A DNA stretch of 64,000 nucleotides from Kiritimatiellia bacterium. Lineage in GTDB: Bacteria > Verrucomicrobiota > Kiritimatiellia > JAAZAB01. The stretch's first letter is position 1. Every line of letters begins with the position of its first letter. A program made the translations under genes and the position numbers. Positions 26,273-40,250 of this stretch are shown one piece after another. The stretch is from contig JAXGPF010000014.1 in the NCBI GenBank assembly GCA_040767085.1, positions 1 to 64,000 of the forward strand, in the 5' to 3' direction. The notes below the pieces were generated by a model. It was not told where the DNA came from. It searched no databases and saw nothing but the letters and a program-made list of their open reading frames with translations.

Positions 26273-28107
26273 GAGAGATTCGCGGAGAAGCCAAGACGAT
26301 CCGCCAACTTCTCGGCGGCACCCGCTACGCCATTGACTACTATCAACGCGAGTACAAGTGGCAGACGAAACAGGTCCGTGAACTGCTTGAGGATCTGGGC
26401 GACCGTTTCCTTGAACACTTCAAAGCCACCGATGAACGTTCCGCCGTGGCCGGCTACGGGCACTATTTCCTCGGCTCCATCATTCTCAGCAAGAAGAACG
26501 GGCAGTCTTTCGTTGTGGACGGTCAGCAGCGTCTTACCACGCTGACGCTTCTGCTTATCCACCTACGAAACCATCTATCCAACACGGAAGACAAAGCAAC
26601 CCTGCAAGACCTTATCCTTTCGCGAGTACATGGCCGAAGCGCCTTCAATCTCTCCGTGGATGAACGGACGCCCTGCATGGAGGCCCTGTTCAAAGGCGAG
26701 GCGTTCGATTCGACCCGGCAACCCGAATCCATCCGCAACATTTGCGACCGTTACGCCGACATCCAGAACCTTTTCCCGGACGAGATCGGGGAAGAAGCCC
26801 TTCCGCTCTTTGCAGACTGGCTCATCGAGAATGTCCACCTTGTGGAAATTTCCGCCTATTCCGATGATGACGCCTACGTGATCTTTGAGACCATGAACGA
26901 CCGGGGCCTTTCCCTCTCGCCCCTCGACATGCTGAAAGGCTTCCTGCTTGCCAACATCACGGACGAAAAGGCCCGGCTCCACGCCGGCGCGACATGGAAG
27001 CAGCAAGTCGCCGCCCTGGCGGAATTGGGGAAAGACGAGGACGCAGACGCCTTCAAGTCATGGCTCCGCAGTCAGTACGCCGATTCCATCCGCGAACGGA
27101 AGAAAGGCGCGCAGCCGATGGACTTCGACCGCCTGGGGACCGAGTTTCATCGGTGGGTGCGCGACAACGAGAAGCGCATCGGGCTGAAGAAAGGCAGTGA
27201 CTTCGCCCGATTCATCGAAACCGACATGGCGTTCTACACCAACCAGTACTTACGACTCCGCAACGCCGCCGAACAATTCACCCCCGAACTACCGACCGTG
27301 TATTACATCGCTCGCTACGAGTTCACCCTTCAATATCCCGTTCTGCTGTCGCCCTTGGCCCCGGACGATAGCGAACAGACGATTCTACGGAAACTCCGGG
27401 TGACTTCGGCATTTCTCGACATCTGGCTCGCCCGCCGCCTCTGGAACTTCCGGTTGATCGCCTACAGCACCATGCAATATGCCATGTTCCTTGTCATCCG
27501 TGACATCCGCCGCTGCACCGTGGCCCAACTCGTGGACAAGCTCACGAAGCATCTTATCAACATCGAGGAGACTTTCGCCGGCAACGACCGTTTGCGGATG
27601 CACCAACAGAATCGGTACTTCATCCACCAATTGCTTGCCCGCATCACCGATTTCGTGGAGGTCGGGTCTGGCCAGCCTTCGCGCTTCGCCGAATTCGTTG
27701 CCGAGGGCAAGGACCGTTACGAAGTTGAACACATCTGGGCAAACCATCCCGAGCGGCATATAGACGAGTTCGGGCATCCTGCCGACTTCGACGAATACCG
27801 CAGCAGGATCGGCGGCCTACTCCTTCTGCCGAAGAAGTTCAACGCCAGTTACGGCGATTTGCCCTATGCGAAGAAACTGCCGCAATATCTCAAGCAGAAC
27901 GGCCCGAATATGCTCGCCCGCTCTCTACATCCGGATAGTTACACCCACAACCCCGGCTTTGTCCGGTTCGTTAGGCAAACCGGACTGAAGTTCAAGGCGC
28001 ACGAGGAGTTTAAGAAGAAGGACCTCGACGCCCGGCAGACCCTTTACCGCCGCATCGCCGAGACCGTATGGAGCCCCGACCGCCTGAAAAAGGAGGCCGC
28101 TTCATGA
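26269..28107 (+). CDS. GmrSD-like DUF262 + DUF1524(HNH) protein
   Basis: DUF262 motifs QREYKW, VDGQQRLTT and FETMNDRG; C-terminal 'EVEHIWA...IGGLLLLPKKFNAS'. Confidence 0.88.
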   Translation: MREIRGEAKTIRQLLGGTRYAIDYYQREYKWQTKQVRELLEDLGDRFLEHFKATDERSAVAGYGHYFLGSIILSKKNGQSFVVDGQQRLTTLTLLLIHLRNHLSNTEDKATLQDLILSRVHGRSAFNLSVDERTPCMEALFKGEAFDSTRQPESIRNICDRYADIQNLFPDEIGEEALPLFADWLIENVHLVEISAYSDDDAYVIFETMNDRGLSLSPLDMLKGFLLANITDEKARLHAGATWKQQVAALAELGKDEDADAFKSWLRSQYADSIRERKKGAQPMDFDRLGTEFHRWVRDNEKRIGLKKGSDFARFIETDMAFYTNQYLRLRNAAEQFTPELPTVYYIARYEFTLQYPVLLSPLAPDDSEQTILRKLRVTSAFLDIWLARRLWNFRLIAYSTMQYAMFLVIRDIRRCTVAQLVDKLTKHLINIEETFAGNDRLRMHQQNRYFIHQLLARITDFVEVGSGQPSRFAEFVAEGKDRYEVEHIWANHPERHIDEFGHPADFDEYRSRIGGLLLLPKKFNASYGDLPYAKKLPQYLKQNGPNMLARSLHPDSYTHNPGFVRFVRQTGLKFKAHEEFKKKDLDARQTLYRRIAETVWSPDRLKKEAAS

Positions 28108-29504
28108 CCGTTGTCCAATCTGCGGGAAAGGGCGGCAGCCAGACTCCCCACACCTTGCCCTCCGTAACTTCAGCAAAGGAGGGTTGGAAGCCATATCCTG
28201 CCTACAAACCCTCCAGCGTCGAATGGCTGGGCGACTTGCCGGAAGAATGGGTTGTGGCGGCGCTGAAGCATCGGTGTCGTCGGTACGCACTCTATGGCGC
28301 AAATATACCTTCAGACGATTATGCACGGGAAGGTGTGCGCCTTTTAAGAACAACCGACATTGATAACTACGGAGACCTCCAGACCGAAGGCGTCTTCATC
28401 TCTCGCGACCAAGCACAAGACTATATCCTTGCCGATGAAGACATCCTTCTCTCACGAAGCGGGACAATTGGCCGCTCTTTTGTGTATTCTTTGAAGCAAC
28501 ATCCGGAGTGCGCATACGCCGGCTATCTCGTTCGTTTTGTCCCATCTGGCCGTTTGAATGCGCGATATTTCTTCTACTTCACAAAGAGCATCTGCTTCTC
28601 GGATTGGTTGCAGACGCAGGTGATCGCCTCGACTATCGGCAATGTCAATGGACAGAAGTATGCGCAATGTCGATTGCCACTTCCAGAGCGTCCAGAACAA
28701 GATGCCATCGCGGCCTTCCTCGACCGGGAGACTGGGAAGATTGACCGGCTGGTGGCGAAGAAACGGGAGTTGATCGAGAAGTTGAAAGAGGAGCGCGCCG
28801 CCATCATTACCCGCACCGTCACCCGCGGCCTGAACCCGGACGCCAAACTCAAACCCAGCGGCGTCGAATGGCTAGGTAATCTGCCGGAAACGTGGGATGC
28901 GGTTCGCCTTCGCCGTCGCGCCCGGCGGATCCAAACCGGAGGGACGCCGCCAACAGTAGAAGAGCGGTATTACGAAGATGGCACAATCCCGTGGTTCGGA
29001 CCGGGTTCTTTCGACGACCAGATCGTCCTTACGCGTCCGGTGAAGTTACTCAACGCATGTGTTGTGACGGAAGGTGCGGCTCGCATATTCGGGCGCGGGG
29101 CAACAATGATTGTGACAATAGGGGCGACACTGGGTAAGGTAAGTTCCCTCGTGACACCGGCCTCCTGCAATCAGCAGATTACGGTTGTGGAGTATGATGA
29201 ACGACGGGTCTTTCCACGCTTTGCGACCTACCAAATCAAGCGGCTGGAATCCACGCTGCGCGCCATAGCCCCCAGCGCAACACTGCCAATCCTCGATCAA
29301 GGGGAGATTGCCGACATCCTCCTGGGTCTCCCAGCCCTCCCCGAGCAACGCGCCATTGCCGACTTTCTCGACCGGGAGACCGGCAAGATTGACCGGCTAG
29401 CGTCGAAGGTGGAGGATGCCATAGAGCGGCTGCAGGAATATCGCGCGGCATTGATCACGGCGGCGGTGATAGGGAAGATTGATGTGCGAGAGGCTGCCTC
29501 ATGA
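28104..29504 (+). CDS. hsdS: Type I R-M specificity subunit
   Basis: Two TRDs with repeated conserved blocks 'KPSxVEWLGxLPExW' and 'PEQxAIAxFLDRETGKIDRL'; ATG 28104 overlaps the upstream TGA. Confidence 0.95.
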   Translation: MTVVQSAGKGGSQTPHTLPSVTSAKEGWKPYPAYKPSSVEWLGDLPEEWVVAALKHRCRRYALYGANIPSDDYAREGVRLLRTTDIDNYGDLQTEGVFISRDQAQDYILADEDILLSRSGTIGRSFVYSLKQHPECAYAGYLVRFVPSGRLNARYFFYFTKSICFSDWLQTQVIASTIGNVNGQKYAQCRLPLPERPEQDAIAAFLDRETGKIDRLVAKKRELIEKLKEERAAIITRTVTRGLNPDAKLKPSGVEWLGNLPETWDAVRLRRRARRIQTGGTPPTVEERYYEDGTIPWFGPGSFDDQIVLTRPVKLLNACVVTEGAARIFGRGATMIVTIGATLGKVSSLVTPASCNQQITVVEYDERRVFPRFATYQIKRLESTLRAIAPSATLPILDQGEIADILLGLPALPEQRAIADFLDRETGKIDRLASKVEDAIERLQEYRAALITAAVIGKIDVREAAS

Positions 29505-30352
29505 ATCTATTCAAACACAAACCGGATCCCTTCTTTGATCTGGTTGTCCACGATATCCTTCGCGCTCCGGGCCTTACGGGGGCCTCTGCCGGTTATGAAG
29601 CAGGCGAGTGGCGATACGATGAGATGGCGAATTACCTTTTCGACTGGCTGCCCGAATTTGCACTCAAATACTCCGAACTTGAGGACTTGAACTCGGGCAC
29701 AGCGATGTACCTCATCAGGCGGGCGGCCAAGACGGTCTTCACGACGTCGAAATACCAGAAGAGAGGTGAGTTCGGGGAGCTCTTGCTGCACGCATTGATT
29801 AGGGACGTGTTTGCTTCGGAACCCGCTATCAGCAAGATTTACTACAAATCAGCAACCAATGACACAGTCAAAGGGTTTGACGCCGTTCATGTAGTCGACA
29901 ACGGTGGGAAATTAGAACTCTGGCTGGGGGAGGTGAAATTCTACAAGGACATTGACGCCGCTATCCGCGATGTGACTGCGGAAATCACGGCCCACATGAG
30001 CCAATATTATCTGCGTAACGAGTTCATCTTAATCACTTCGAAGCTAGACCCCCGGTGGCAGTATGCGGAAACGCTGAAGAGTCTGATCAGCAGCAGAACA
30101 TCCTTGGACAAGGTGTTTGCGAGAATATGTATCCCCATTCTGCTCACCTATGAGAGCACCTGCGTCGCCAGTTACACGGAAGCTAATGCGCAGTACACCG
30201 CTGCCTTGACCAAGGAACTCCAGGAGATATACGAGAAGTTCGCTGAATGCCAACTTCCGCCGGTGCGCGTCCACTTGTTCCTCATGCCGCTTAAGAGTAA
30301 GGACAATCTTGTTTCGATCCTTCAGTGCAAATTGGAGGGGTTGCAGCGATGA
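29501..30352 (+). CDS. hamA: Hachiman nuclease HamA (DUF1837)
   Basis: 'KRGEFGELLLH', 'KGFDAVH' and 'LWLGEVKFY' (PD-(D/E)XK-type) directly upstream of a Ski2-like helicase. Confidence 0.85.
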   Translation: MNLFKHKPDPFFDLVVHDILRAPGLTGASAGYEAGEWRYDEMANYLFDWLPEFALKYSELEDLNSGTAMYLIRRAAKTVFTTSKYQKRGEFGELLLHALIRDVFASEPAISKIYYKSATNDTVKGFDAVHVVDNGGKLELWLGEVKFYKDIDAAIRDVTAEITAHMSQYYLRNEFILITSKLDPRWQYAETLKSLISSRTSLDKVFARICIPILLTYESTCVASYTEANAQYTAALTKELQEIYEKFAECQLPPVRVHLFLMPLKSKDNLVSILQCKLEGLQR

Positions 30353-32445
30353 CCCCTCTCGATTTAAGACGGCTTGCAGATCCTGCCTTCATGCGCGACT
30401 ACCCGTTTGTCGTTCTATCCGAGATCGCCCGTCTTCTCAGTATTAACGAGAATGATGGCCGTGACCTCTTGATTCGCGCCCTTGAGTACAGCGGCAGTTT
30501 CTCAGCATTTCGCCCCGTCCTCACTAGTCTTGTGCAGAAGGCAGGCCTCTACCCGTATACCGGTGATTCTGACGCCCTATCTACCGATGAGATTCTCAAT
30601 TTGGAGTTCCACACAGCCGACGGGCTTGACGGGATCGTTCTCCACTCCATGCAAGGCCGCGTCTATCGAGCTCTGATGGATGGGGCCAACGTAATCTTGA
30701 GTGCTCCGACGAGTTTCGGGAAAAGTCTGTTAATTGATGCGATGATCGCATCGCGCCGGTTCGTTTGCATTGTGGTCATCGTGCCGACGATTTCGCTTAT
30801 TGATGAAACGCGGCGCCGGTTTGCCGCGCGTTTTGGGTCTGAGTTTAAGGTTATTACGCATCCTTCACAGAGGCCCGCAAAGAAATGCATCTACGTGCTG
30901 ACACAAGAGAGGTTTGTCGAGTTCGCAAACGCCCTTGAACCAGATTTCTTCGTGATCGACGAGTTCTACAAGTTGAGTCCCAATCGCGGCGACGACCGGA
31001 CGTTTGTACTGAATCACGCTTTCTATCGGCTCTTGAAGTCAGGCGCGCAGTTTTTTCTAATCGGTCCTAATATTCAGGCCATCACAATCGACCAGACCCA
31101 TCTTAACTTTCGCTTTTTCGGAACTAATTTCAGCACTGTCGCCGCGGAAGTCATCTTTATGGGGGATGGTGAACCTGAACAGAATGCCTTGAAGGTATGC
31201 CGTGGCCTGTCAGAACCGACACTAATCTTCTGCAAGTCTGCGGCAAGCGCCTACAAACTCGGGCAGTTCTTGAGAGGGGAAGGGGTCTCTGCACCCTCCG
31301 AAGCCCTGCACGATGCCGCCCAATGGTTGCGCGAGAACTACCACCCTGACTGGGTCCTTGCGGACTTGCTTAAAGATGGTCTTGCGGTGCACCATGGAGC
31401 ATTGCCAAGGTCCGTTGCATATCACTTTCTGCGCCTGTTCAACGAAGGCGCAATCCGATTTCTTCTCTGCACTTCGACAATCATCGAGGGTGTGAATACC
31501 ACAGCCAAGAGCATCATTATCTATGACAACAAGATTGCTACGAAAAAGTTTGATCAGTTCACATTCAACAACATAAAGGGTCGGGCGGGCCGCATGTTCA
31601 AGCATTTCGTCGGCCATGTGTACGTGCTGCACAATGAACCGCAGCCGGAACTGCCTTTGGTCGATGTGCCTTCAATTACTCAGCCGGATGACACTCCGGA
31701 GTCTCTCCTTGTTCAAATGGACGACAGCGATCTCTCTGAACACTCTCTTGAACGTTTGCGTTACCTTCATGCGCAGAAAGACCTGCCTATTGAAGTCATC
31801 CGAGAGAACGCTGGTATCGCGCCAGAGCAACAATTAGATGTCGCACGTGAAATCGACGCCAACATAGCGAAGTACCACCCACTTCTGTCCTGGAGAGGTT
31901 TCCCGCAGTCCGAACAACTGTTTACTGTGTGCGGGCTTATCTTCGACTACCTGATGGGCGGGACCGGCAAAGACGGTGTGTTCGGTGGGAAGCAGTTATG
32001 GTTCAAGATGTCACGGTTCGCGAAGATCAAGACCATAGATGGATTGATCCGGGCTGAGTTGCGCGAAAACAATCAGATTGCTGGACCTTCCGACGCTGTT
32101 GAAGAGGTCTTGATGTTCCTCCGGAGATGGGGGGAATTTCATTTTCCAAGATACCTTGGTGCATTGGACAAGATCCAACGAAGCGTGTTTGAGCGAGCCG
32201 GCCATCAAGGTGGAAACTACGAACCCTACTGTGCGGCAGTGAAGCAACTCTTCATGCCCTTGTCCGCAACGGTGTTGGAGGAGTATGGAATCCCATACCA
32301 ACTGTCCATGAAACTCGAAGAGCGTCTTCCGCTTGGAGATGACGTGGACACTATTCTGAGCAATTTGCCGAGAGTCGATGTTGCCAGCCTGAAGATGTCA
32401 GGATTTGAACGAGACATGCTCAATGATGCGCTGAACAATTTGTGA
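30349..32445 (+). CDS. hamB: Hachiman Ski2-like helicase HamB
   Basis: 'SAPTSFGKS', 'VIDEFYK', 'HHGALP', 'CTSTIIEGVN', 'NIKGRAGR'; ATGA overlap with hamA. Confidence 0.85.
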   Translation: MTPLDLRRLADPAFMRDYPFVVLSEIARLLSINENDGRDLLIRALEYSGSFSAFRPVLTSLVQKAGLYPYTGDSDALSTDEILNLEFHTADGLDGIVLHSMQGRVYRALMDGANVILSAPTSFGKSLLIDAMIASRRFVCIVVIVPTISLIDETRRRFAARFGSEFKVITHPSQRPAKKCIYVLTQERFVEFANALEPDFFVIDEFYKLSPNRGDDRTFVLNHAFYRLLKSGAQFFLIGPNIQAITIDQTHLNFRFFGTNFSTVAAEVIFMGDGEPEQNALKVCRGLSEPTLIFCKSAASAYKLGQFLRGEGVSAPSEALHDAAQWLRENYHPDWVLADLLKDGLAVHHGALPRSVAYHFLRLFNEGAIRFLLCTSTIIEGVNTTAKSIIIYDNKIATKKFDQFTFNNIKGRAGRMFKHFVGHVYVLHNEPQPELPLVDVPSITQPDDTPESLLVQMDDSDLSEHSLERLRYLHAQKDLPIEVIRENAGIAPEQQLDVAREIDANIAKYHPLLSWRGFPQSEQLFTVCGLIFDYLMGGTGKDGVFGGKQLWFKMSRFAKIKTIDGLIRAELRENNQIAGPSDAVEEVLMFLRRWGEFHFPRYLGALDKIQRSVFERAGHQGGNYEPYCAAVKQLFMPLSATVLEEYGIPYQLSMKLEERLPLGDDVDTILSNLPRVDVASLKMSGFERDMLNDALNNL

Positions 32446-32458
32446 GAAGTCGCTCAGA

Positions 32459-35400
32459 ATGAAGACAACAACAGAGCACGCGTTTGAAACCCACGTGGAG
32501 GAACTTCTCCTCGGACAGTCGGGCTGGAAATCCGGCACGAATGCCGAGTGGGATAAGGAGCGGGCGCTGTTCCCAGCGCGTATCTTCGCCTTTCTGCAAG
32601 ACACACAGGCGAAGTTGTGGGAGGAGATGCGTGGACTTCACGGCCCCGGTCTTGAGTCCATGCTCATCGCGGCGCTGGTTAAGGAACTCGACATTAAGGG
32701 CATGCTGCATGTGCTTCGGCACGGCTTCAAGTTCTACGGCAAGACGTTTCGGTCGGCATATTTCAAACCGGCGCACGGGCTGAATTACGAGATCATTGAC
32801 CTATTCAATAAGAATCAACTTACGATTACCCGCCAGACACCCTGCCATCCGGCCGACAATTCCACTGTGGACATGGTGTTTGCCGTCAACGGTATGCCGG
32901 TCGCCACATGTGAATTGAAGAATCCCGGAACTGGCCAGAGTTGGCGCAAGGCGGTCAATCAGTACCGCGAGGATCGCGATCCGCGCGCGCCGTTGTTCCA
33001 GTTCAAGAACAGGGCTTTAGTTCACTTCGCCGCCGACCCGGACGAAGTCCACATGACCACGCGACTGGCGAATGAGCGGTCGCACTTCCTACCCTTCAAC
33101 AGGGGGAGTCATCCGGGCGAAATCCAGTGTGGCGCGGGCAATCCGCTGCATCCATCCGGCTATCGGACGGGCTATTTCTGGGAGGATGTCCTTCAGCGTG
33201 ACAGTTTCTTGGACATTCTCGGTCACTTCATGTTCGTCGAGAAACGCGATCAGAAGAAAGATGATGGCAAGGGCGGAAAGATTCGGGTGACAACGGAGAC
33301 GGTCATCTTTCCGCGTTACCACCAACTCGACGCCGTGCGAAAACTCGTGGCAACCGCCCGCAGAGAAGGCGCTGGCCGCAACTATCTCATTCAACATTCG
33401 GCGGGAAGCGGGAAGACCAACAGTATTTCCTGGCTTTCACACCGATTGGCGAGTCTGCACAACGAAAAAGACGAGAAGACGTATGATTGCGTCGTCGTCA
33501 TTACGGACCGCCGCATCCTCGACCAGCAGTTGCAGGACGCCATCTATCAGATTGAGCACTCACAGGGCGTGGTAAAGGCGATTGATCAGGACGCCAAGCA
33601 ACTCGCGGCGGCGCTGATTGACGGCACGAAGATCGTCATTACCACCTTGCAGAAGTTCCCGTTCGTGTTGCGCGGTCTGTTGCACACCGCTGGTGCCGAG
33701 AACCAAGATCAGGCAACCGACGATGAGAAACGGCAGGCTAAGGAATGGGAAGCCGCCATCGCCGCCCGAAAGTACGCGGTGATCGTGGACGAGGCTCATT
33801 CCAGCCAGACCGGCGAGACAGCGCGGGAACTGAAAGCCATTCTCGGAGCGAACGCTGCGCCAGAACCGGAAGACGCCGAACCGGACTGGGAAGACCGCTT
33901 GAACCAGATCATGCAGTCGCGGGGGCGGCAACCCAATCTGAGCTTCTTCGCGTTCACCGCCACGCCCAAGGGGAAGACCCTTGAATTATTCGGCCGGCCC
34001 GGAGCCAATGGCACACCGGAGGCTTTTCACGCCTACAGTATGCGGCAGGCTATCGAGGAGGAGTTCATTCTGGACGTACTTCAGAACTACACCTCGTATG
34101 ACACGTATTTCCGGCTCGTCAAGGCGGTGGAGGAGGACCCGAATGTCCCGAAGCACAAGGCGGCGCGTGCACTGGCGAAGTTCATGAGTCTGCATCCGCA
34201 CAACATTGAGCAGAAGACCGAGGTTATGGTTGAACACTTCCGGCTACATGTGAAGAACCAGATTGGCGGGCGGGCCAAGGCCATGGTAGTGACTTCATCC
34301 CGCCTGCACGCAGTGCGCTACAAACTGGCGTTTGAGCGCTACATTGCCGCGAACGGCTATACCGACGTGAGGCCCCTGGTGGCGTTCAGCGGAACAGTCA
34401 AAGACCCGGAGACCGGCCTTGAGTACACAGAACCGAGCATGAATCCAGATGTTGTGACCGGCAAACCGATCAGCGAGTCGCAGTTGCCGGATCGCTTAGA
34501 CTCCCCCGACTACCAGGTCTTGCTGGTCGCCAACAAGTACCAGACCGGTTACGACCAACCTTTGCTTCACACCATGTACGTGGATAAACGATTGGACGGC
34601 GTCCAGGCCGTGCAGACTCTATCCCGTCTGAATCGGAAGATTCCCGGCAAAAGCGAACCGTTCATACTCGATTTTGTAAACTCACCCGAAGACATCTACC
34701 GCGCGTTCAAACCGTACTACGACGCCACGAGTCTTCAGGAGGCATCCGATCCTTCCAAGCTGGAGACATTGAAACACGAACTGGACCAAGCCCAAGTCTA
34801 CTTCTGGAGCGAGGTGGAGGCGTTCGCGCAAATCTTCTATCGCCCTTTGGAGAAACAGAATGCCGGCGACCATGCCCGCATGCAGCAACACCTGCAACCG
34901 GCAGTGGACCGTTTCAAGGCAATCCCGGAAGAGGAGACGCGGACAGCATTCAGGGAGAAGTTGAGCGGTTATGTTCAGATTTACGCATTCCTGAGCCAAG
35001 TTGTCCCCTATGTGGACTCTGAACAGGAAATGCTCTACAGTTACGGCCGCTTCCTGCTTCCGCACCTGCCGCTTGAGCGAGACACCACGGTCTTGAAACT
35101 CGGGGATGAAGTCGGCCTCCAATACTACCGGCTGGAACGCGTGTCATCCGGCGCAATTCAAGTCCGCGAGGGGCCGCCTGAAGGCGTAAAGAGCCCGACG
35201 GATGTCGGCACCGGCAAGGCAAAGGACGAGAAGGTCCCGTTATCCGAAATTATCCAGGTACTCAACGACCGTTTTGGAACCAACTTCACCGAAGAAGACC
35301 GGTTGTTCTTTGAGCAGATCAAAGAAAAGGCGATCAAGAACGAGAAGGTCATCCGGACGGCCCGTGCCAATCCGCTCGATAAGTTCCAACTTGGCATCCG

Positions 35401-35569
35401 CAAACTGATCGAAGACCTCATGATTCAACGCATGGCCGACAACGACAAGATCGTAACGCGATACATGGACGATCAGGAGTTCCAGAACTCTGCCTTCCCG
35501 ATTCTCGCGAAGGAGATATTCGAGTCTATCCATGCGGGAGACGAATCGGAAACGACTACGCCAGGCTAG
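32459..35569 (+). CDS. hsdR: Type I restriction endonuclease subunit R
   Basis: 'DMVFAVNGMPVATCELKN', 'HSAGSGKT', 'DEAH', 'FTATPK', 'QTLSRLNR'. Confidence 0.97.
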   Translation: MKTTTEHAFETHVEELLLGQSGWKSGTNAEWDKERALFPARIFAFLQDTQAKLWEEMRGLHGPGLESMLIAALVKELDIKGMLHVLRHGFKFYGKTFRSAYFKPAHGLNYEIIDLFNKNQLTITRQTPCHPADNSTVDMVFAVNGMPVATCELKNPGTGQSWRKAVNQYREDRDPRAPLFQFKNRALVHFAADPDEVHMTTRLANERSHFLPFNRGSHPGEIQCGAGNPLHPSGYRTGYFWEDVLQRDSFLDILGHFMFVEKRDQKKDDGKGGKIRVTTETVIFPRYHQLDAVRKLVATARREGAGRNYLIQHSAGSGKTNSISWLSHRLASLHNEKDEKTYDCVVVITDRRILDQQLQDAIYQIEHSQGVVKAIDQDAKQLAAALIDGTKIVITTLQKFPFVLRGLLHTAGAENQDQATDDEKRQAKEWEAAIAARKYAVIVDEAHSSQTGETARELKAILGANAAPEPEDAEPDWEDRLNQIMQSRGRQPNLSFFAFTATPKGKTLELFGRPGANGTPEAFHAYSMRQAIEEEFILDVLQNYTSYDTYFRLVKAVEEDPNVPKHKAARALAKFMSLHPHNIEQKTEVMVEHFRLHVKNQIGGRAKAMVVTSSRLHAVRYKLAFERYIAANGYTDVRPLVAFSGTVKDPETGLEYTEPSMNPDVVTGKPISESQLPDRLDSPDYQVLLVANKYQTGYDQPLLHTMYVDKRLDGVQAVQTLSRLNRKIPGKSEPFILDFVNSPEDIYRAFKPYYDATSLQEASDPSKLETLKHELDQAQVYFWSEVEAFAQIFYRPLEKQNAGDHARMQQHLQPAVDRFKAIPEEETRTAFREKLSGYVQIYAFLSQVVPYVDSEQEMLYSYGRFLLPHLPLERDTTVLKLGDEVGLQYYRLERVSSGAIQVREGPPEGVKSPTDVGTGKAKDEKVPLSEIIQVLNDRFGTNFTEEDRLFFEQIKEKAIKNEKVIRTARANPLDKFQLGIRKLIEDLMIQRMADNDKIVTRYMDDQEFQNSAFPILAKEIFESIHAGDESETTTPG

Positions 35570-35822: not shown

Positions 35823-36743
35823 TTAGATTGCCTTCTTGAAAAGTTCAAAACGTTCTTCCAGGGCCGCCTGATCTGGTTTTAACTGATCTGGTTTAGGAAC
35901 CATGATTGTTTGGCCGTGAAAGCCCTGCAGTCCATGCTTCAGCATCGGGCCGTCAGTTTCATTGAGAACGTCTTTTCGAACTTCGATGATGTAATCAGGG
36001 CGTATCCCTAAGATTTGCCGGTCAAAAGCTCCGTGGTGCAGGCTGCAAAGAGCCAAACCATTTGAAACCAAAGGTAATCCTTTCGGATGACTGTCCGGAA
36101 GAATATGGGCAGCTTCAAGTAGCTCCTGATGCTTTAAGCGGCATATAGCACAGCGTTCGTGGTAAGCCAGCAAAACACGTATCCGGAATGACTGCTGGTG
36201 CATTCGTTGCCTGGCCTCAATGGTCTTGTAAAGGCGGCGGCCGAAAATATCCTGCTCAGCTACACCGGCGGGAGTTATTCCAACCTTGGCTTCATCGACG
36301 GCCACGGAGAAACTTAATTTATCCGGTTCATCATTGACAATGAACACGGGCCAGAAAGGCTGATACAAACCTTTCACAACACCAAACAAATATATAAGCG
36401 GTATCTTATGCTGCATCGCCAGTCTGAGTCCTACGTTATCCCTATGGCTGGGATCGGTGCCACGGTATCGGTAGCACAACAGATCATTATAATCGAATCC
36501 ATCCTCATAAGGACGTGCCTTGCCTTCGACTTCAGGTGCTGTCGTGATGGATAGCGGTAATTCTAAGACGGCTGGTTTGAAAATGCCCTGGGGTCCAATC
36601 AACGGCACCCGCCGGCCTTGAAACTCGAAGCCTTTAGCAAGCAGCGCCCTGGGTAGGACATCCCCATGAAACTGGGTAGCATTACGCAGGAAATCGAAAG
36701 CTGCATTTCGCACCTGAATATCGATGGATGATGCGCTGTTCAT
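35823..36743 (-). CDS. HNH endonuclease, putative (modification-dependent) restriction enzyme
   Basis: C-terminal 'CAIC...LLEAAHI...NGLALCSLHHGAFD'; N-terminal 'YRYRG...DNVGLR.AM...IPLIY' region reminiscent of SRA/PUA folds (inference). Confidence 0.8.
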   Translation of the reverse strand: MNSASSIDIQVRNAAFDFLRNATQFHGDVLPRALLAKGFEFQGRRVPLIGPQGIFKPAVLELPLSITTAPEVEGKARPYEDGFDYNDLLCYRYRGTDPSHRDNVGLRLAMQHKIPLIYLFGVVKGLYQPFWPVFIVNDEPDKLSFSVAVDEAKVGITPAGVAEQDIFGRRLYKTIEARQRMHQQSFRIRVLLAYHERCAICRLKHQELLEAAHILPDSHPKGLPLVSNGLALCSLHHGAFDRQILGIRPDYIIEVRKDVLNETDGPMLKHGLQGFHGQTIMVPKPDQLKPDQAALEERFELFKKAI

Positions 36744-36816: not shown

Positions 36817-37617
36817 CTACCTGGCCGCCTTCGCTTGGTTTTCCATGGCTATCACATAGCGCTTGAGGTGATATGTTATCAGATGGACGTCCGCGTCGTC
36901 GATCTGGGCGTGCCGTTTAGCCATCGCCTTGGTGAAGGACAGATGGTTCATCAACCACACCTCGGGCCAATCGACGGTTGCCTTTACGAACCAGCCAGGA
37001 TACAGCACCACGGGCTGGACTTTGAATTCCTTGCCGGTGCTGGACTCTATGAGGTCGCGCAGCCATCGGGCTTCTGACAGGGCTTGGATCACGGGGTCAC
37101 GGTCGGGCTGGAAGCCGTTAACCTTTACCTTTTCGCCATCGTACGTGACCATGCACGGCCCATTAACGGGCTTGCTGTGGGTCTTGGTCTCGATGGCATA
37201 GATCCCGCCAGGGCCGACCAGCACGTGGTCCACGTTGAAGCTGTCGGAATGGATGTCATGCAGCACCTGATACCCGGCCGGGCGCAGCTTTTCCTCCAGG
37301 TACTGACCAACAGCCTCTTCGCCGATTTGCCCCAGGTGGAGCGACTTTATTTTCTTTTTCGTCCGCCACAGCTTCACCCCGGCTAACGTGACGGTCAAGG
37401 CGGCCATTATGGTGTATAGCCAGGGTGATCTTTGGGGATGGAACAACACGGCGATCCACTCGAGAAAGGCGACCACGATCATGCAGAACGCGGCGAAAAT
37501 CCAAGGCACGGCCACTTCATCGAACAAGTATTCAATACGTTCCCTGATCGACTGTCCTGGCATTCGAACAGGCAGGTCTTTGATCGGGCTTTTCCTATGT
37601 CGCTTGTTTTCTGGCAT
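36817..37617 (-). CDS. NERD nuclease-related domain protein with two N-terminal TM helices
   Basis: 'GQIGEE.V', 'NVDHVLVGPGGIYAIETK', 'PVIQA'; two hydrophobic helices near the N-terminus. Confidence 0.85.
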   Translation of the reverse strand: MPENKRHRKSPIKDLPVRMPGQSIRERIEYLFDEVAVPWIFAAFCMIVVAFLEWIAVLFHPQRSPWLYTIMAALTVTLAGVKLWRTKKKIKSLHLGQIGEEAVGQYLEEKLRPAGYQVLHDIHSDSFNVDHVLVGPGGIYAIETKTHSKPVNGPCMVTYDGEKVKVNGFQPDRDPVIQALSEARWLRDLIESSTGKEFKVQPVVLYPGWFVKATVDWPEVWLMNHLSFTKAMAKRHAQIDDADVHLITYHLKRYVIAMENQAKAAR

Positions 37618-37907
37618 AATATCAACCGTCAACTTTCAATTTAATTTAGAGCACTTTTATCAGATTGGCACGGAAAGAGAAAGACAAATCAGACAGAAAT
37701 ATTGGAACGAAACAGGACTGGAAACGGGCGGCATTCAACGCCGCCGCCGACAACTTCATTTCTCCGCCTTCCATGAAAAGACGCGTCGGAGTGCGCAAAG
37801 CACATCCGCTTCAAACACCGAGGATCAGATAGCATTCAAGGCAGGTGGAGATCCGTGCGGGCGAGGTATTTTCCGGATAAACAAGGGTGATATTTGGAAA
37901 TAGGGCG

Positions 37908-40250
37908 TCATTCAAGTTGTTTTGTGATTTTAAGGGAATTAGAGGTCGGCGGGTTTAATTTTCCAACCATAATGCCGAGTATGGGGTAGGCGCAGTCAGC
38001 CTTGGGAACGCATATGTCTTTATAAGCGGGATTGGTTGAACGGAAAATCCAATAGTCGGGAGACTGGATCAGGCGTTTGACGGCATGTTCAGTGGTTAAA
38101 TCGCTCGTAATCCCCAATTCAGTAAGATTTGCGATAACGATTTGATTCGGCTTGCGCGGCGCCCGGTGATATTCAAATATTATTCTATCGCCGATATTCA
38201 GTTCCGGTTCCATCGAATTTCCGGCAATTCGCACTACAAACCGATTCCGGCCGGCCAGGCGGTCAGGCACTATGATCCATGGACATTCCGTGGCATATTT
38301 CAGGTCGGAAATATCGAAGCCGGTGTATGCCGCCCCGGCTGCCAGCGTCCCAATAACTGGTAAATATCTTACAAAAGCCTCTCCGCGTATGTCGGCGTAG
38401 TTGCGGATTTCAAATGCGCTTTCTTGCTCAACCAGCCTGGCGCCCGGCCCTGCAGCAGGCTGATTCATGTGAGATTGTGCCGGAAAGGCGTTTGAATTGG
38501 CGCGCTTGCCCCTGGCCGATGACGGCATACGGACAGCGGCGGATTGTGCCGGCGGTTCCCATCGCGGCACGCAGCGCCGGAAGGCGGTGAGTTCCACGGC
38601 TTCCACCAGGCGCGAGAAGAGCTGTATTTGCCATTTATTACGTTGCAGTGGTAAATTCCCGCAAAATCCCGTTGCTTCCCGTTCAAATCTTTCAGAAAGG
38701 GACTCCCGCAAAACTTCCCAGCATCCAATTATCTCATCCCGGCGGCGATGCAGCAGCCCATTGGACGGTAAAGCGTCGCGTTTATTGTTGTTAATTTCCG
38801 GATGGCACGGCAAAAGGTTCCAGAGGTCGTTGTTGTGCCAGAGCGCAAATGGAATGACATGGTCCATGTCAAAGCGGGACGCCCGGATAGGCCTGCCTGA
38901 CCAGACACACTCGGAAACGCCCGTTTGTTCGAACAGCAGCCGCGCATCGCGAGTTTCACGTTCAGGGTCGGATATCGAAAGCAGTTTCTCCACGATGGCG
39001 CTTAAACTTGTCGCGCCCCTGGACAGGCGTTCCGTCAATTCCGCCCAGCGCAATATTGTTGCGTCCTGAATCCAGTTGCCGGTCATTGTCAGTTCGCGCC
39101 AGAGTTCAAGGGGCATGGTGACTTGCCGGGTTGTTTTATCAAAGCCGAAAACCGAGAAATCCGCACCGCCGCCCGCATAACGCACCGGCATATTCCAGAT
39201 CGTGCTTTCAATTTTCCGTATCGCCATGCGATAATATTCTTGCACATCAGCCGGCAAACCGTTGTTCTTGAGCGCGACCAGGAAGGCCGGCAATCCGCCG
39301 CCCTCACTGAAGGAATTGATCACTTTGCCTATCGGGGCGCGAATGGCAATTGGTTTTGAGCCATCCTGTGTTTCCCCGTATTTCTGGGCGATGAATTTTT
39401 CCGAAGCAATCAGCGGCCAGTAATAGACCAGCCACCGTTCGGCCAGCGTCCGTATGGGGATCCCGACCTGGCCGGGCAGGTCGTAAGTGGCGAGGTTATA
39501 CTGCGTCTGGGCAATCTCCGACAATGCGCGAAACAAGGCGAGTTTATATGTGGCGTCTTTCTTGTCGCGATTCAAGATGCTCTCAACCAAATCCAGCGGC
39601 CGGCCGGCATCATCGCCAAACCTCTGGAAAAGAAACGTGGCCCAAAATGTTCCCGGCCGGTCTTGGGCGTCGGCGGTTTCTTTTTCCCATAACAAGCGAA
39701 ACCCAACCCGTTCCAGGAGGAGCTTCAATTTTGCCGGCGGCAGATCGGCAAAGTAGCGATCATGCGGATCCCGCCGGGTTTTGGGGTCAATGTCAGGTCG
39801 GCGGGCGGGAATTGAAAGCAATAGGCGTCCGCCTGGCCGCAAGACGCGGCGCATGCCGTAGATTGCATCGAACAGATATTCTTCCGGCAGGTGCATCAAA
39901 ACCGCCGAACACAACAAACCATCAAACGAGGAATCGCTGCATGATTTCAATTCCGGCAAGCAGTCCAGCGCGAGGGATCCTTCGGCAGCGAACCCCGCCG
40001 TTCGGCAAGTCTGCGCTGCGATATCAAGCATTGCCTGGCAGGCATCGATCCCGGCAACGTCATGGCCAAGCTGCCGCAACCGCGCGAGGTCCCGGCCTGA
40101 TCCACAGCCGATGTCCAGAATCTTCCCAAACCCATTGAACGCATCTGCAAAATAATCAGAAACACCACCATTTACCGACAGATAGCGGCCGGCCAGCTGC
40201 TGGCTATGGGTGGAGTAATAGTTAAGGGTCTGGGCGTCCAGGTGATCCAT
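37908..40250 (-). CDS. Class I SAM methyltransferase - HNH endonuclease - LexA/S24 peptidase fusion
   Basis: 'ILDIGCGSGRD' and 'CSAVLMH'; 'ATYKLALFRAL'; 'CVWSG...MDHVIPF...NDLWNLLPC...NNNKRD'; 'LPVIGTLAAG', 'IAGNSMEP', 'AVKRL'. Confidence 0.85.
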   Translation of the reverse strand: MDHLDAQTLNYYSTHSQQLAGRYLSVNGGVSDYFADAFNGFGKILDIGCGSGRDLARLRQLGHDVAGIDACQAMLDIAAQTCRTAGFAAEGSLALDCLPELKSCSDSSFDGLLCSAVLMHLPEEYLFDAIYGMRRVLRPGGRLLLSIPARRPDIDPKTRRDPHDRYFADLPPAKLKLLLERVGFRLLWEKETADAQDRPGTFWATFLFQRFGDDAGRPLDLVESILNRDKKDATYKLALFRALSEIAQTQYNLATYDLPGQVGIPIRTLAERWLVYYWPLIASEKFIAQKYGETQDGSKPIAIRAPIGKVINSFSEGGGLPAFLVALKNNGLPADVQEYYRMAIRKIESTIWNMPVRYAGGGADFSVFGFDKTTRQVTMPLELWRELTMTGNWIQDATILRWAELTERLSRGATSLSAIVEKLLSISDPERETRDARLLFEQTGVSECVWSGRPIRASRFDMDHVIPFALWHNNDLWNLLPCHPEINNNKRDALPSNGLLHRRRDEIIGCWEVLRESLSERFEREATGFCGNLPLQRNKWQIQLFSRLVEAVELTAFRRCVPRWEPPAQSAAVRMPSSARGKRANSNAFPAQSHMNQPAAGPGARLVEQESAFEIRNYADIRGEAFVRYLPVIGTLAAGAAYTGFDISDLKYATECPWIIVPDRLAGRNRFVVRIAGNSMEPELNIGDRIIFEYHRAPRKPNQIVIANLTELGITSDLTTEHAVKRLIQSPDYWIFRSTNPAYKDICVPKADCAYPILGIMVGKLNPPTSNSLKITKQLE

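What the first reader, a model, noticed from the sequence alone, without database searches (positions are those of the whole stretch)
37908..40250. Methyltransferase-HNH nuclease carrying a complete LexA-type self-cleavage module: candidate SOS/RecA-gated defence effector
Seen: one 780-aa ORF with a class I SAM-MTase (aa ~1-210, no DPPY/NPPF motif, so not a canonical amino-DNA MTase), a 'TYKLAL' helical domain, an HNH (His464), a low-complexity linker, then LPVIGTLA-A638-G639, GNS679M and VK725RL. Established: LexA and phage CI repressors autocleave at an Ala-Gly bond using a Ser/Lys dyad when bound to RecA-ssDNA (E. coli LexA LPLVGRVAAG, Ser119, Lys156). Here the repressor HTH is replaced by enzymes. 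Inference: RecA*-triggered cleavage or loss of S24-mediated dimerisation switches the nuclease on or off during infection or DNA damage. This matches the genome-integrity theme of the adjacent Hachiman. I know of no characterised system with this architecture.
Basis: partly seen in the sequence, partly recalled or inferred. Interest (0 to 1): 0.85.

Follow-up and report, generated by a model that had tools for sequence, protein, structure and literature searches.

The report
Self-cleaving switch on a defence nuclease
A bacterial DNA-cutting enzyme from a large unstudied family ends in the same self-cleaving module that lets LexA respond to DNA damage, so the enzyme may be wired directly to the cell's damage alarm.

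Summary
A 780-aa ORF on the minus strand (37908-40250) encodes five parts:
- a class I SAM methyltransferase;
- a conserved winged-helix-type domain;
- a Cas9-type HNH nuclease;
- a disordered linker;
- a complete S24 (LexA/UmuD-type) module with Ala638-Gly639, Ser679 and Lys725.

It is not an assembly artefact. Of 117 full-length relatives, all keep Ala638 and Ser679, and 116 keep Gly639 and Lys725.

New here:
- The S24 module is an add-on. Forms of about 560 aa, spread over many phyla, end exactly where the linker starts.
- S24 forms sit almost only in Verrucomicrobiota, Lentisphaerota and Kiritimatiellota.
- S24 comes in three types that are as far from each other as from the genome's own UmuD.
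- S24 forms are not one clade on the core tree (AU p 6e-6). The same core captured S24 more than once.

The gene is patchy among relatives, decays to remnants, and lies among defence genes. An HNH_2 nuclease gene recurs beside it across phyla.

Most likely this is a restriction-like nuclease controlled after translation by self-cleavage, probably stimulated by RecA*. The direction is open. I lean to an off-switch, because the cleaved nuclease fragment would end in LAA (105 of 117), a ClpX-type degron. Cleavage, RecA dependence and defence are all untested. I found no description in print.

The parts
37908..40250 (-). Whole ORF, 780 aa plus stop (stop codon 37908-37910)
   Evidence: 1176 relatives at E<=1e-3.
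39615..40250 (-). Residues 1-212: class I SAM-dependent methyltransferase of the small-molecule-like (Methyltransf_11/25) kind
   Evidence: Pfam. Motif I D46/G48/G50/G52 is 117/117. Fold Z 24.4 to 3e23, 195 aligned, rmsd 2.4, followed by other small-molecule methyltransferases. No DNA amino- or C5-methyltransferase motif.
38916..39614 (-). Residues 213-445: conserved middle domain (K231, T234-Y235-K236, R241, W273, Y276, W278, P279), probably a winged-helix-type DNA-binding or 'reader' domain
   Evidence: The listed residues are 117/117 in A2 and at least 71/74 in the wider set. Model pLDDT 89.3. Best folds: sulfur-binding domains 7ccd Z 6.5 (127 aligned of 169), 8h0l Z 6.1, 5zmo Z 6.0. These are tied with the Cdc6/ORC winged helices 1fnn Z 6.1 and 1w5s Z 6.0. 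No Pfam or PDB sequence match.
38541..38915 (-). Residues 446-570: Cas9-type HNH (HNH_4) nuclease with its closing helices. Catalytic D463-H464 at 38859-38864.
   Evidence: Pfam HNH_4. The family profile hits Cas9 HNH at 6e-7, with the D-H, N and N-x-x-K-x-D positions aligned. Fold 8d2k Z 7.5, 108 aligned. D463, H464, N478, N487, K490 and D492 are 117/117.
38433..38540 (-). Residues 571-606: disordered, variable linker. Short natural forms of the family end just before it.
   Evidence: pLDDT below 50. Between the end of the core and the S24 module there are 33-70 residues, median 50, in 117 relatives. 34 of 38 S24-less forms end at reference residue 565-573.
37911..38432 (-). Residues 607-780: S24 LexA/UmuD-type autoproteolytic module. 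Scissile A638-G639 at 38334-38339, Ser679 at 38214-38216, Lys725 at 38076-38078.
   Evidence: Pfam PF00717. NCBIfam UmuD model 3.4e-4, below its cut-off. BLASTP against the genome's own UmuD-like protein gives E 0.004 over the GxSM-to-VKR stretch. Conservation. pLDDT is low at 640-645, just after the scissile bond.
35823..36743 (-). 306-aa HNH_2 (PF13391) nuclease gene: a recurrent neighbour of the family and a possible partner. This is not established.
   Evidence: Pfam 3.5e-10. An HNH_2 gene lies within two ORFs of the family gene in 8 of 35 long-form loci scanned and in 1 of 36 short-form loci. It also lies next to distant relatives in 4 of 6 plasmid contexts viewed: Tolypothrix, Nostoc, Deinococcus, Azospirillum.
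36817..37632 (-). 271-aa NERD-domain protein between the two genes, on the same strand. Membership in the unit is uncertain.
   Evidence: Pfam NERD 6.9e-17. NERD proteins also lie next to the family gene in L004, L007, L017, L020 and L046.

Best explanation
The gene encodes a restriction-like nuclease of a large uncharacterised family. It is usually a stand-alone gene.

The core, found in many phyla, is a winged-helix-type DNA-reading domain followed by a Cas9-type HNH nuclease. An N-terminal SAM methyltransferase of non-DNA-MTase type usually precedes it.

In Verrucomicrobiota, Lentisphaerota and Kiritimatiellota the core has acquired, more than once, a flexible linker and a complete S24 autoprotease that carries its own Ala-Gly site.

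Proposed mechanism:
1. In undamaged cells the full-length enzyme is intact and acts on its DNA target. The target is unknown. It may be foreign DNA marked or unmarked by a modification that the middle domain reads.
2. RecA-ssDNA filaments form during DNA damage. That includes damage the nuclease itself causes, or damage from phage replication.
3. The filaments stimulate the Ser679/Lys725 dyad to cut Ala638-Gly639. This severs the enzymatic part (1-638) from the S24 core (639-780).
4. I lean to cleavage switching the nuclease OFF. The new C-terminus is ...LAA, which would make the enzymatic fragment a ClpXP substrate, as happens to cleaved LexA. That would give a built-in restriction alleviation or autoimmunity brake.

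Shown: the architecture, the conservation, repeated capture of S24, the accessory and defence-type genomic behaviour, and the presence of RecA, UmuD-like and ClpX genes.

Inferred: self-cleavage, the RecA* trigger, the direction of the switch, the degron, the DNA target, and the role of the methyltransferase.
For: Architecture and catalytic sets.

S24 site and dyad:
- A638 117/117, G639 116/117, S679 117/117, K725 116/117.
- S679 and K725 36/36, and Ala/Cys-Gly 35/36, in genome loci.

S24 is an add-on:
- 34 of 38 short forms end at reference residue 565-573.
- A profile of the core finds 3162 representative proteins at E<=1e-3. Most of the top 150 are 550-590 aa.

Repeated capture of S24:
- Type B and C modules are 22-27% identical to the window's S24, while their cores are 43-47% identical.
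- Cross-type BLAST scores are 20-45 bits, the same range as against the genome's own UmuD (18-37). Within a type they are 98-256 bits.
- S24 presence needs 4 changes on the core tree, and a single clade is rejected (dlnL 243, p-AU 5.9e-6).

Accessory, defence-like behaviour:
- The full-length gene is in 2 of 61 related genomes. Remnants lie in at least two more, G014 and G020.
- Neighbours are type I RM, GmrSD, Hachiman, NERD and HNH_2 in the window, and many defence genes elsewhere.

Host machinery:
- RecA, a UmuD-like/UmuC-like pair and ClpX are present.
- LexA is present in 4 of 5 other host genomes checked.

Off-switch lean:
- LAA precedes the scissile bond in 105 of 117 relatives.
- Passages of PMC5742171 say LexA-like proteins carry ClpXP-dependent C-degrons next to the autocleavage site.
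- Passages of PMC12707154 describe ClpXP-mediated proteolytic restriction alleviation after DNA damage.
- Short forms exist without S24, so the core does not need S24 to be tolerated.
Against: - No experiment of any kind exists for this family. Cleavage, RecA dependence, nuclease activity, methylation and defence are all inferred.
- The motif xAA|G is also what the S24 active site itself prefers, so LAA may be conserved for catalysis rather than as a degron. Types B and C would end in AAA, ATA, VAC or IAC.
- That ssrA ends in LAA and that the LexA fragment ends in VAA is recalled. The source paper was not held.
- A sensor-type SLOG (cpYpsA) domain sits between HNH and S24 in L018 and P0210. 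The cleaved product also resembles the natural short form. Both fit an ON-switch as well.
- The own genome shows no LexA (95% complete).
- PADLOC has no model for the whole protein.
- About three quarters of long-form loci have no HNH_2 neighbour, and some loci are flanked by housekeeping genes.
- The middle domain's fold matches are weak (Z <= 6.5) and tied.
Confidence: 0.4

Rival explanations
1. ON-switch, abortive-infection type. The tethered S24 module holds the nuclease inactive. RecA* formed on phage replication intermediates or on damaged DNA triggers cleavage. That releases an enzyme equivalent to the natural short form, which then degrades DNA. The precedent is UmuD to UmuD', not LexA.
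For: - Cleavage would leave a product that is the natural short form plus the linker.
- A ligand-sensor-type cpYpsA SLOG domain is inserted before S24 in L018 and P0210. This suggests the C-terminal region is a sensory input.
- The genome's only other S24 protein is UmuD-like.
- The best NCBIfam S24 hit is the UmuD model, 3.4e-4 and below its cut-off.
- Many defence systems are triggered by DNA damage. That statement is recalled and comes from no call.
Against: - Short forms lacking S24 are widespread as stand-alone genes, so the core is evidently tolerated without an inhibitor.
- The linker is 33-70 residues and disordered, which is a poor basis for steric inhibition.
- The exposed LAA end points to degradation of the enzymatic fragment.
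- Docking of S24 on the core could not be tested.
Confidence: 0.25
2. S24 self-cleavage occurs but RecA* does not gate it. Either it is a one-off maturation step, or it is triggered by another signal. Candidates are a nucleotide-type ligand, a phage protein, or DNA binding by the enzyme itself. Alternatively the S24 domain serves mainly as a dimerisation module.
For: - The own genome shows no LexA.
- There are three divergent S24 types.
- Some members have a cpYpsA SLOG domain.
- S24 domains of LexA, UmuD and CI dimerise, and reader-HNH enzymes such as TagI act as dimers (abstract of PMC6212794, seen in the listing).
Against: - The characterised S24 autoproteases I recall that have an internal Ala/Cys-Gly site are stimulated by RecA*. 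This is recalled, not from a call.
- RecA and a UmuD-like protein are present.
- Near-invariance of both the site and the dyad argues against a purely structural role.
Confidence: 0.17
3. It is not an immune gene. It would be a selfish or housekeeping nucleic-acid enzyme, for example a mobile nuclease-methyltransferase cassette or a repair or RNA-modifying enzyme. The defence-island setting would then be incidental.
For: - The methyltransferase resembles small-molecule and RNA methyltransferases rather than DNA methyltransferases.
- Some loci are flanked by housekeeping genes.
- No PADLOC model covers it.
- Transposases or integrases lie beside several short forms.
Against: - Patchy distribution and decay to remnants.
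- Repeated co-location with RM, GmrSD, NERD, HNH_2, Schlafen, AbiE, Z1 and zeta-toxin genes in many phyla.
- No match in 50,697 phage records.
Confidence: 0.1
4. The S24 module is a catalytically dead relic.
For: No direct evidence of activity. Earlier notes from this scan describe S24-nuclease fusions in Pseudoalteromonas with Arg in place of the catalytic Lys (unchecked AI notes).
Against: - Ser, Lys and the scissile dipeptide are kept in nearly all of 117 plus 36 sequences, at 35-66% identity.
- They are kept in three independently derived module types.
Confidence: 0.05

Closest known systems
LexA, UmuD and lambda CI (MEROPS S24 autoproteolytic proteins)
   Same: An S24 fold family domain over Pfam's cut-off, with the GxSM serine, the lysine about 46 residues later, and an Ala-Gly (Cys-Gly in type C) scissile bond upstream in the same chain. 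The likely trigger and chemistry are the same. The fragment N-terminal of the cut would end in xAA, as in LexA-like proteins with C-degrons.
   Different: The cargo is not an HTH repressor domain or a short peptide on a polymerase subunit. It is a 638-aa three-domain enzyme. No LexA_DNA_bind or other HTH family was found in it. It lies in a defence island rather than in a regulon. Three divergent S24 types are attached to the same core.
Reader-HNH type IV (modification-dependent) restriction enzymes: ScoMcrA and SprMcrA (SBD-[SRA]-HNH), and winged-helix-HNH fusions
   Same: A DNA-reading domain sits N-terminal of an HNH nuclease in one chain, in a defence context. The middle domain's best fold matches include the sulfur-binding domains 7ccd, 8h0l and 5zmo (Z 6.0-6.5, covering most of each chain). 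Sources: passages of PMC6224610; abstracts of PMC7461809 and PMC11037411 from the listing.
   Different: - The HNH is Cas9-type HNH_4 with a single conserved Cys (C448), not four. ScoMcrA has a four-Cys zinc finger according to PMC6224610.
- There is no sequence-level match to SBD. The SBD signature residues (His116, Arg/Lys117, Pro165) were not identified.
- The fold match is tied with generic winged helices.
- This family adds a SAM methyltransferase and an S24 module, which those enzymes lack.
Proteolytic restriction alleviation of type I restriction enzymes (ClpXP degrades HsdR after DNA damage)
   Same: As a working analogy only: a restriction nuclease removed by proteolysis when the chromosome is damaged or unprotected (passages of PMC12707154).
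   Different: There the protease acts in trans on a translocating complex. Here the first cut would be made in cis by the enzyme's own S24 module. Nothing has been tested.
MADS mad2 (PADLOC PDLC04134)
   Same: The methyltransferase domain matches mad2 positions 280-416 at 2.8e-13.
   Different: The match covers only residues 31-182. The rest of the protein has no counterpart in the model, and no other MADS gene was looked for or seen among the neighbours.

Membership tests
MEROPS S24 / Pfam PF00717 autoproteolytic domain | Domain model matched over the curated threshold | tested here: met
   43.5 bits against a cut-off of 23.3, residues 631-760. Types B and C also match.
MEROPS S24 / Pfam PF00717 autoproteolytic domain | Ser nucleophile and Lys general base | tested here: met
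   S679 117/117 and K725 116/117. Both 36/36 in genome loci.
MEROPS S24 / Pfam PF00717 autoproteolytic domain | Scissile Ala-Gly or Cys-Gly bond upstream in the same chain | tested here: met
   A638-G639. 116/117. 35/36 read by eye, with L045 having Ala-Ser.
MEROPS S24 / Pfam PF00717 autoproteolytic domain | Self-cleavage, stimulated by RecA-ssDNA-ATP | not testable with these tools
   Only the prerequisites could be seen: RecA and a UmuD-like protein in the genome.
LexA / CI repressors proper | N-terminal HTH DNA-binding domain that represses transcription | tested here: not met
   No HTH or LexA_DNA_bind family in the protein at E<=1. The N-terminal 570 residues are a methyltransferase, a middle domain and an HNH.
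HNH / His-Me finger nucleases (HNH_4, Cas9 type) | Domain model over threshold, with catalytic D-H, the Asn of the beta-beta-alpha-metal site and the metal-binding Asn | tested here: met
   32.6 bits against 22. D463, H464, N478 and N487 are 117/117. They align to the Cas9 HNH motif at 6e-7. Fold Z 7.5 to 8d2k.
Class I SAM-dependent methyltransferases | Rossmann-like fold with motif I (GxGxG) and an acidic residue that binds the ribose | tested here: met
   Pfam 3.9e-16. G48, G50 and G52 are 117/117; D69 is D in 109 and E in 8. Fold Z 24.4 to 3e23.
DNA amino- (N6A/N4C) or C5-methyltransferases | Motif IV (D/N/S)PP(Y/F/W/H), or PCQ together with ENV | tested here: not met
   None of these patterns occurs in the 780 residues. 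The nearest families and folds are small-molecule or RNA methyltransferases.
Sulfur-binding domain (SBD) of phosphorothioate-dependent type IV enzymes | SBD fold with the sulfur cavity residues (His116, Arg/Lys117, Tyr164, Pro165 of ScoMcrA; PMC6224610 passages) | tested here: inconclusive
   Fold Z 6.0-6.5 over 117-127 residues, tied with Cdc6/ORC winged helices at Z 6.0-6.1, and none at Z>=8. No sequence match at E<=10 in PDB or E<=1 in Pfam. Residue equivalence could not be read, because no residue-level structural alignment was available.
Known anti-phage systems in PADLOC-DB 2.0 | A model that covers the protein | tested here: inconclusive
   Only partial hits: mad2 on the methyltransferase, and weak Cas9 models on the HNH. 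The library dates from 2023.

The most novel reading that the evidence does not exclude
This would be the first family of enzymes, as opposed to repressors or a polymerase subunit, whose activity is set directly at protein level by S24 autoproteolysis. In effect it is a restriction-like nuclease with its own RecA* sensor. The arrangement was useful enough for the same nuclease core to capture an S24 module at least two or three separate times. Together with the unchecked earlier notes of S24 on other restriction-like enzymes, this would point to a general, undescribed way of coupling DNA-cutting immunity to the SOS signal.
Probability: 0.4. Interest if true: 0.8.

Novelty: new variant of a known kind. 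Interest (0 to 1): 0.68.

Why it matters
S24 self-cleavage is the textbook switch of the SOS response and of prophage induction. So far it is known to control only DNA-binding repressors and UmuD.

A nuclease that carries the switch itself would show that bacteria also wire effector enzymes to the RecA* signal after translation. It bears on an old problem: how cells keep restriction-type nucleases from killing them when the chromosome is damaged or unprotected.

The question is directly testable with a single protein and four point mutants. The family is large: 1243 representative proteins at E<=1e-10 for the core. None of it carries a functional annotation in the records seen.

Tried and rejected
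It never ran, so it says nothing.
- phmmer of residues 600-780 against PDB sequences: no match at E<=1.
- Foldseek of the middle+HNH model against PDB: nothing at E<=1e-3.
- Foldseek and VIA searches with the whole model returned only methyltransferases.
- Protein Atlas gave only unnamed clusters, both for the middle domain and for the N-terminal part of the HNH_2 neighbour.
- A conserved obligatory partner gene: all-against-all clustering of ORFs within 6 kb in 80 loci found no cluster present in more than 10 loci.
- A specific link to Hachiman: no HamA or HamB homologue among those neighbours.
- The idea that S24 fusions compensate for a missing LexA in these phyla: rejected. LexA_DNA_bind is over its cut-off in 4 of 5 other host genomes.
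- Phage origin: no tblastn match in the phage collection. Plasmids hold only distant relatives without S24 (22 records, all below 60% identity).
- Expression: one 217-base contig from a metatranscriptome library lies on 38006-38222. This does not show transcription.
- Promoter scan: nothing above the shuffled expectation.
- Earlier notes of this scan near the site or by sequence: none.
- Literature: five full-text searches found no paper on a methyltransferase-HNH-S24 protein or an S24-gated nuclease. Only listings and the passages cited were read. bioRxiv supplements are closed, and no supplement was opened.
- The first tree run gave no answer and was redone.
Full report
**1. What is there**

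The 780-codon ORF at 37908-40250 is on the minus strand.

Pfam finds three domains over their curated cut-offs:
- Methyltransf_25 and related families, residues 44-141, 3.9e-16.
- HNH_4, residues 448-495, 7.9e-8.
- Peptidase_S24, residues 631-760, 2.9e-11.

No DNA-methyltransferase motif IV, PCQ or ENV occurs (codons checked).

An AlphaFold2 model built on 117 relatives has mean pLDDT 87.5 and pTM 0.71. Residues 571-606 are below pLDDT 50, which is the linker. There is also a dip at 640-645, just after the scissile bond.

**2. The domains one by one**

*Methyltransferase.* Its nearest solved folds are small-molecule or unassigned class I methyltransferases. The best is 3e23 at Z 24.4, rmsd 2.4, 195 aligned. 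UbiG, ChlM, glycine-sarcosine and toxoflavin methyltransferases follow at Z 20-22. NCBIfam hits are all far below their cut-offs. It is therefore a bona fide SAM-binding fold with an unknown substrate. It is not a canonical DNA methyltransferase.

*HNH.* It is of the Cas9 type. A profile of the family's middle+HNH part hits Cas9 HNH domains at 6e-7, with the D-H, Asn and N-x-x-K-x-D positions aligned. The fold gives Z 7.5 to 8d2k.

*Middle domain (213-445).* It matches no Pfam or PDB sequence.
- Its best fold matches are the sulfur-binding domains of phosphorothioate-dependent type IV enzymes: 7ccd at Z 6.5 with 127 of 169 residues aligned, 8h0l at Z 6.1, and 5zmo at Z 6.0.
- These are tied with the winged-helix domains of Cdc6/ORC at Z 6.0-6.1, and nothing reaches Z 8.
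- I read it as a winged-helix-type DNA-binding domain.
- The SBD likeness is a lead only. The cavity residues named in PMC6224610 (passages) were not identified here.

*S24 module.* It aligns with the genome's own UmuD-like protein across the GxSM and VKR blocks (E 0.004).

**3. Not an artefact, and under selection**

The search for homologous proteins returned 1176 proteins at E<=1e-3. Of the 120 listed, 119 carry PF00717, and most cover 98% of the query at 45-66% identity.

In an alignment of 117 of them:
- A638 117/117, G639 116/117 (one Ser), S679 117/117, K725 116/117 (one gap).
- All HNH and SAM-motif residues tested are 117/117.

In 36 S24-bearing forms taken from genomes, down to 36% core identity, Ser and Lys are 36/36. 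Read by eye, 35/36 have Ala-Gly or Cys-Gly at the site; L045 has Ala-Ser.

**4. The S24 module is an accretion, captured more than once**

A scan of one genome per species found 297 related stretches, of which 80 were kept. Among the window plus the 73 loci with an ORF of at least 540 aa, 36 rows have S24 and 38 do not.
- 34 of the 38 short forms end at reference residue 565-573. That is at the conserved RWEP motif, just before the window's linker.
- Short forms occur in Pseudomonadota, Acidobacteriota, Planctomycetota, Myxococcota, Bacillota, Bacteroidota, Synergistota, Spirochaetota, a CPR bacterium and a methanogen.
- S24 forms are in Verrucomicrobiota, Lentisphaerota and Kiritimatiellota, plus one Desulfobacter and one unlabelled chromosome.

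A profile of the core alone finds 3162 representative proteins at E<=1e-3 and 1243 at E<=1e-10. I picked 30 of them for their unusual length and scanned them with Pfam:
- 17 have a C-terminal S24 (one of them below Pfam's cut-off).
- 9 are core-only proteins of 357-388 aa.
- 4 have C-terminal tails without any Pfam hit.

The S24 modules fall into three types.
- Type B (L020, L044, L050) and type C (L041, L043, L054, with a Cys-Gly site as in UmuD) are only 22-27% identical to the window's module. Their cores are 43-47% identical to the window's core.
- Conversely, L028, L039, L045 and L067 have cores at 36-39% identity but S24 modules at 42-48%.
- Cross-type BLAST scores are 20-45 bits, no better than against the genome's UmuD (18-37 bits). 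Within a type they are 98-256 bits.

On a maximum-likelihood tree of the core, S24 presence needs 4 changes. Holding all 36 S24 rows together costs 243 log-likelihood units (p-AU 5.9e-6). The group was named after I had seen the FastTree tree, which weakens the test somewhat.

Repeated capture, or exchange, of a self-cleaving module by the same nuclease core is the strongest computational argument that the coupling is functional.

One further variant, L018 (and the fragment P0210), carries a cpYpsA SLOG domain at 3.3e-50 between the HNH and S24.

**5. Genomic behaviour**

In the window the gene sits behind an AraC-type regulator with terminator-like hairpins. A NERD gene and an HNH_2 nuclease gene follow it on the same strand. 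Beyond them lies a type I RM operon that also holds a GmrSD-like gene and a HamA/HamB Hachiman pair.

Among 61 related genomes, counting the window's own, the full-length gene is found in only two, the window's genome and one congener at 89% identity.
- G014 holds a 222-aa in-frame deletion remnant, with methyltransferase residues 1-78 joined to the S24 part.
- G020 holds an S24-only fragment.

Neighbours in other loci are a changing mix:
- Defence and mobile genes: RM, Z1/HATPase/Dcm, GmrSD, Schlafen, NERD-UvrD, zeta toxin, AbiE, HipA, DUF4143, integrases.
- Some housekeeping genes.

No partner is obligatory. One neighbour does stand out, a 250-320-aa HNH_2 (PF13391) protein.
- It lies within two ORFs in 8 of 35 long-form loci scanned, plus the window, and in 1 of 36 short-form loci.
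- It lies next to distant relatives in 4 of 6 plasmid contexts viewed: Tolypothrix, Nostoc, Deinococcus and Azospirillum.
- Several of the Verrucomicrobiota loci are close kin, so these counts overstate independence.

The Hachiman neighbour is not shared by any related locus.

**6. Host machinery**

The genome (4.08 Mb, 95% complete) has RecA and ClpX. It has only one other S24 protein, a 149-aa UmuD-like protein directly upstream of a UmuC-like gene. No LexA DNA-binding domain was found. LexA is over its cut-off in 4 of 5 other genomes that carry long forms. The family therefore does not replace a missing LexA.

**7. Mechanism**

What the sequence supports is a nuclease whose C-terminal S24 module can cut the chain at Ala638-Gly639. 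By analogy with the characterised S24 autoproteases I recall (recalled knowledge, not from a call), RecA-ssDNA filaments are the most likely trigger. The direction of the switch is open.

For an off-switch:
- Short forms show that the core is tolerated without S24.
- The cut would leave the enzymatic fragment ending in LAA in 105 of 117 relatives (FAA 6, IAA 5, VAA 1).
- LexA-like proteins carry ClpXP-dependent C-degrons right at the autocleavage site (passages of PMC5742171).
- That ssrA ends in LAA and the LexA fragment in VAA is recalled. The source paper was not held.
- This would be a cis-acting version of the proteolytic restriction alleviation known for type I enzymes (passages of PMC12707154).

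For an on-switch:
- The product resembles the natural short form.
- UmuD is activated by its own cleavage.
- Some members carry a sensor-type SLOG domain in the same region.

My layered odds:
- Architecture as described: 0.95.
- S24 is an active autoprotease: about 0.75.
- RecA* is the trigger: about 0.55.
- Off rather than on, given cleavage: about 0.55.
- Defence or restriction role: about 0.7.

**8. Comparison and novelty**

The protein works like LexA or UmuD at its tail, and looks like a reader-HNH type IV enzyme in its core. It is a member of neither. It has no HTH, so it is not a LexA/CI repressor. SBD membership is unproven.

Five full-text searches found no description of this architecture or of an S24-gated nuclease. 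The database names seen are only 'methyltransferase domain-containing protein', 'class I SAM-dependent methyltransferase', or JGI's composite 'SAM-dependent methyltransferase/SOS-response transcriptional repressor LexA'.

Earlier notes of this scan report S24 modules on other restriction-like enzymes. In Pseudoalteromonas the catalytic Lys is replaced by Arg. In Patescibacteria a LexA is fused to an RM methyltransferase. These notes are unchecked and count only as leads. They suggest the theme is wider than this family. Here, unlike the Pseudoalteromonas fusions, the dyad is intact.

I rate the finding a new variant of a known kind: a known switch on a new class of cargo.

**9. Limits**

- Everything beyond architecture and comparative genomics is inference.
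- The complex prediction that might have shown whether S24 docks on the core never ran.
- A single 217-base contig from a metatranscriptome library lies on the gene. It does not show expression.

Noticed in passing
window 35823-36743 (-); also L001, L007, L010, L012, L013, L019, L040, L051, L059, L087-L089, L091: An HNH_2 (PF13391) nuclease of 250-320 aa recurs beside the family gene from Verrucomicrobiota to cyanobacterial, Deinococcus and Azospirillum plasmids. It may be a partner. Its N-terminal ~190 residues match nothing named.
   Followed up: partly
L018:8001-10721 (+), residues 597-742; also protein P0210: A Lentisphaeria member of the family has a circularly permuted YpsA SLOG domain (PF12694, 3.3e-50) inserted between the HNH and the S24 module.
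   Followed up: partly
own genome: L081 1477-1926 (-) and 190-1458 (-): The genome's only other S24 protein is a UmuD-like 149-aa protein directly upstream of a UmuC-like polymerase gene. No LexA DNA-binding domain was found in the 95%-complete assembly.
   Followed up: partly
L086 1901-2569 (-) (genome G014); L084 1131-1730 (+) (genome G020): Decayed copies in related genomes. One is a 222-aa in-frame internal deletion that joins methyltransferase residues 1-78 to the S24 part, next to a UvrD-like helicase gene. The other is a 199-aa fragment holding only the S24 part.
   Followed up: partly
window 24158-35569 (+): A type I RM operon (hsdM, hsdS ... hsdR) is interrupted by a GmrSD-like gene (26269-28107) and a HamA/HamB Hachiman pair (29501-32445) between the specificity and restriction subunits.
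   Followed up: no
L041 692-1507, L043 849-1664, L054 634-1449 (+): In the three type C (Cys-Gly) loci a 271-aa protein with a partial PAPS-reductase domain lies immediately upstream of the family gene. L004 has a full PAPS reductase there.
   Followed up: no
L008 1285-2355 (+): In one Terrimicrobiaceae locus recA lies two ORFs upstream of the family gene. It is a single case and may be chance.
   Followed up: no
window 38006-38222: One 217-base contig with no differences from a metatranscriptome library lies on the S24-coding part. The DNA itself is held by anaerobic-digester, bioreactor and sludge metagenome runs.
   Followed up: partly
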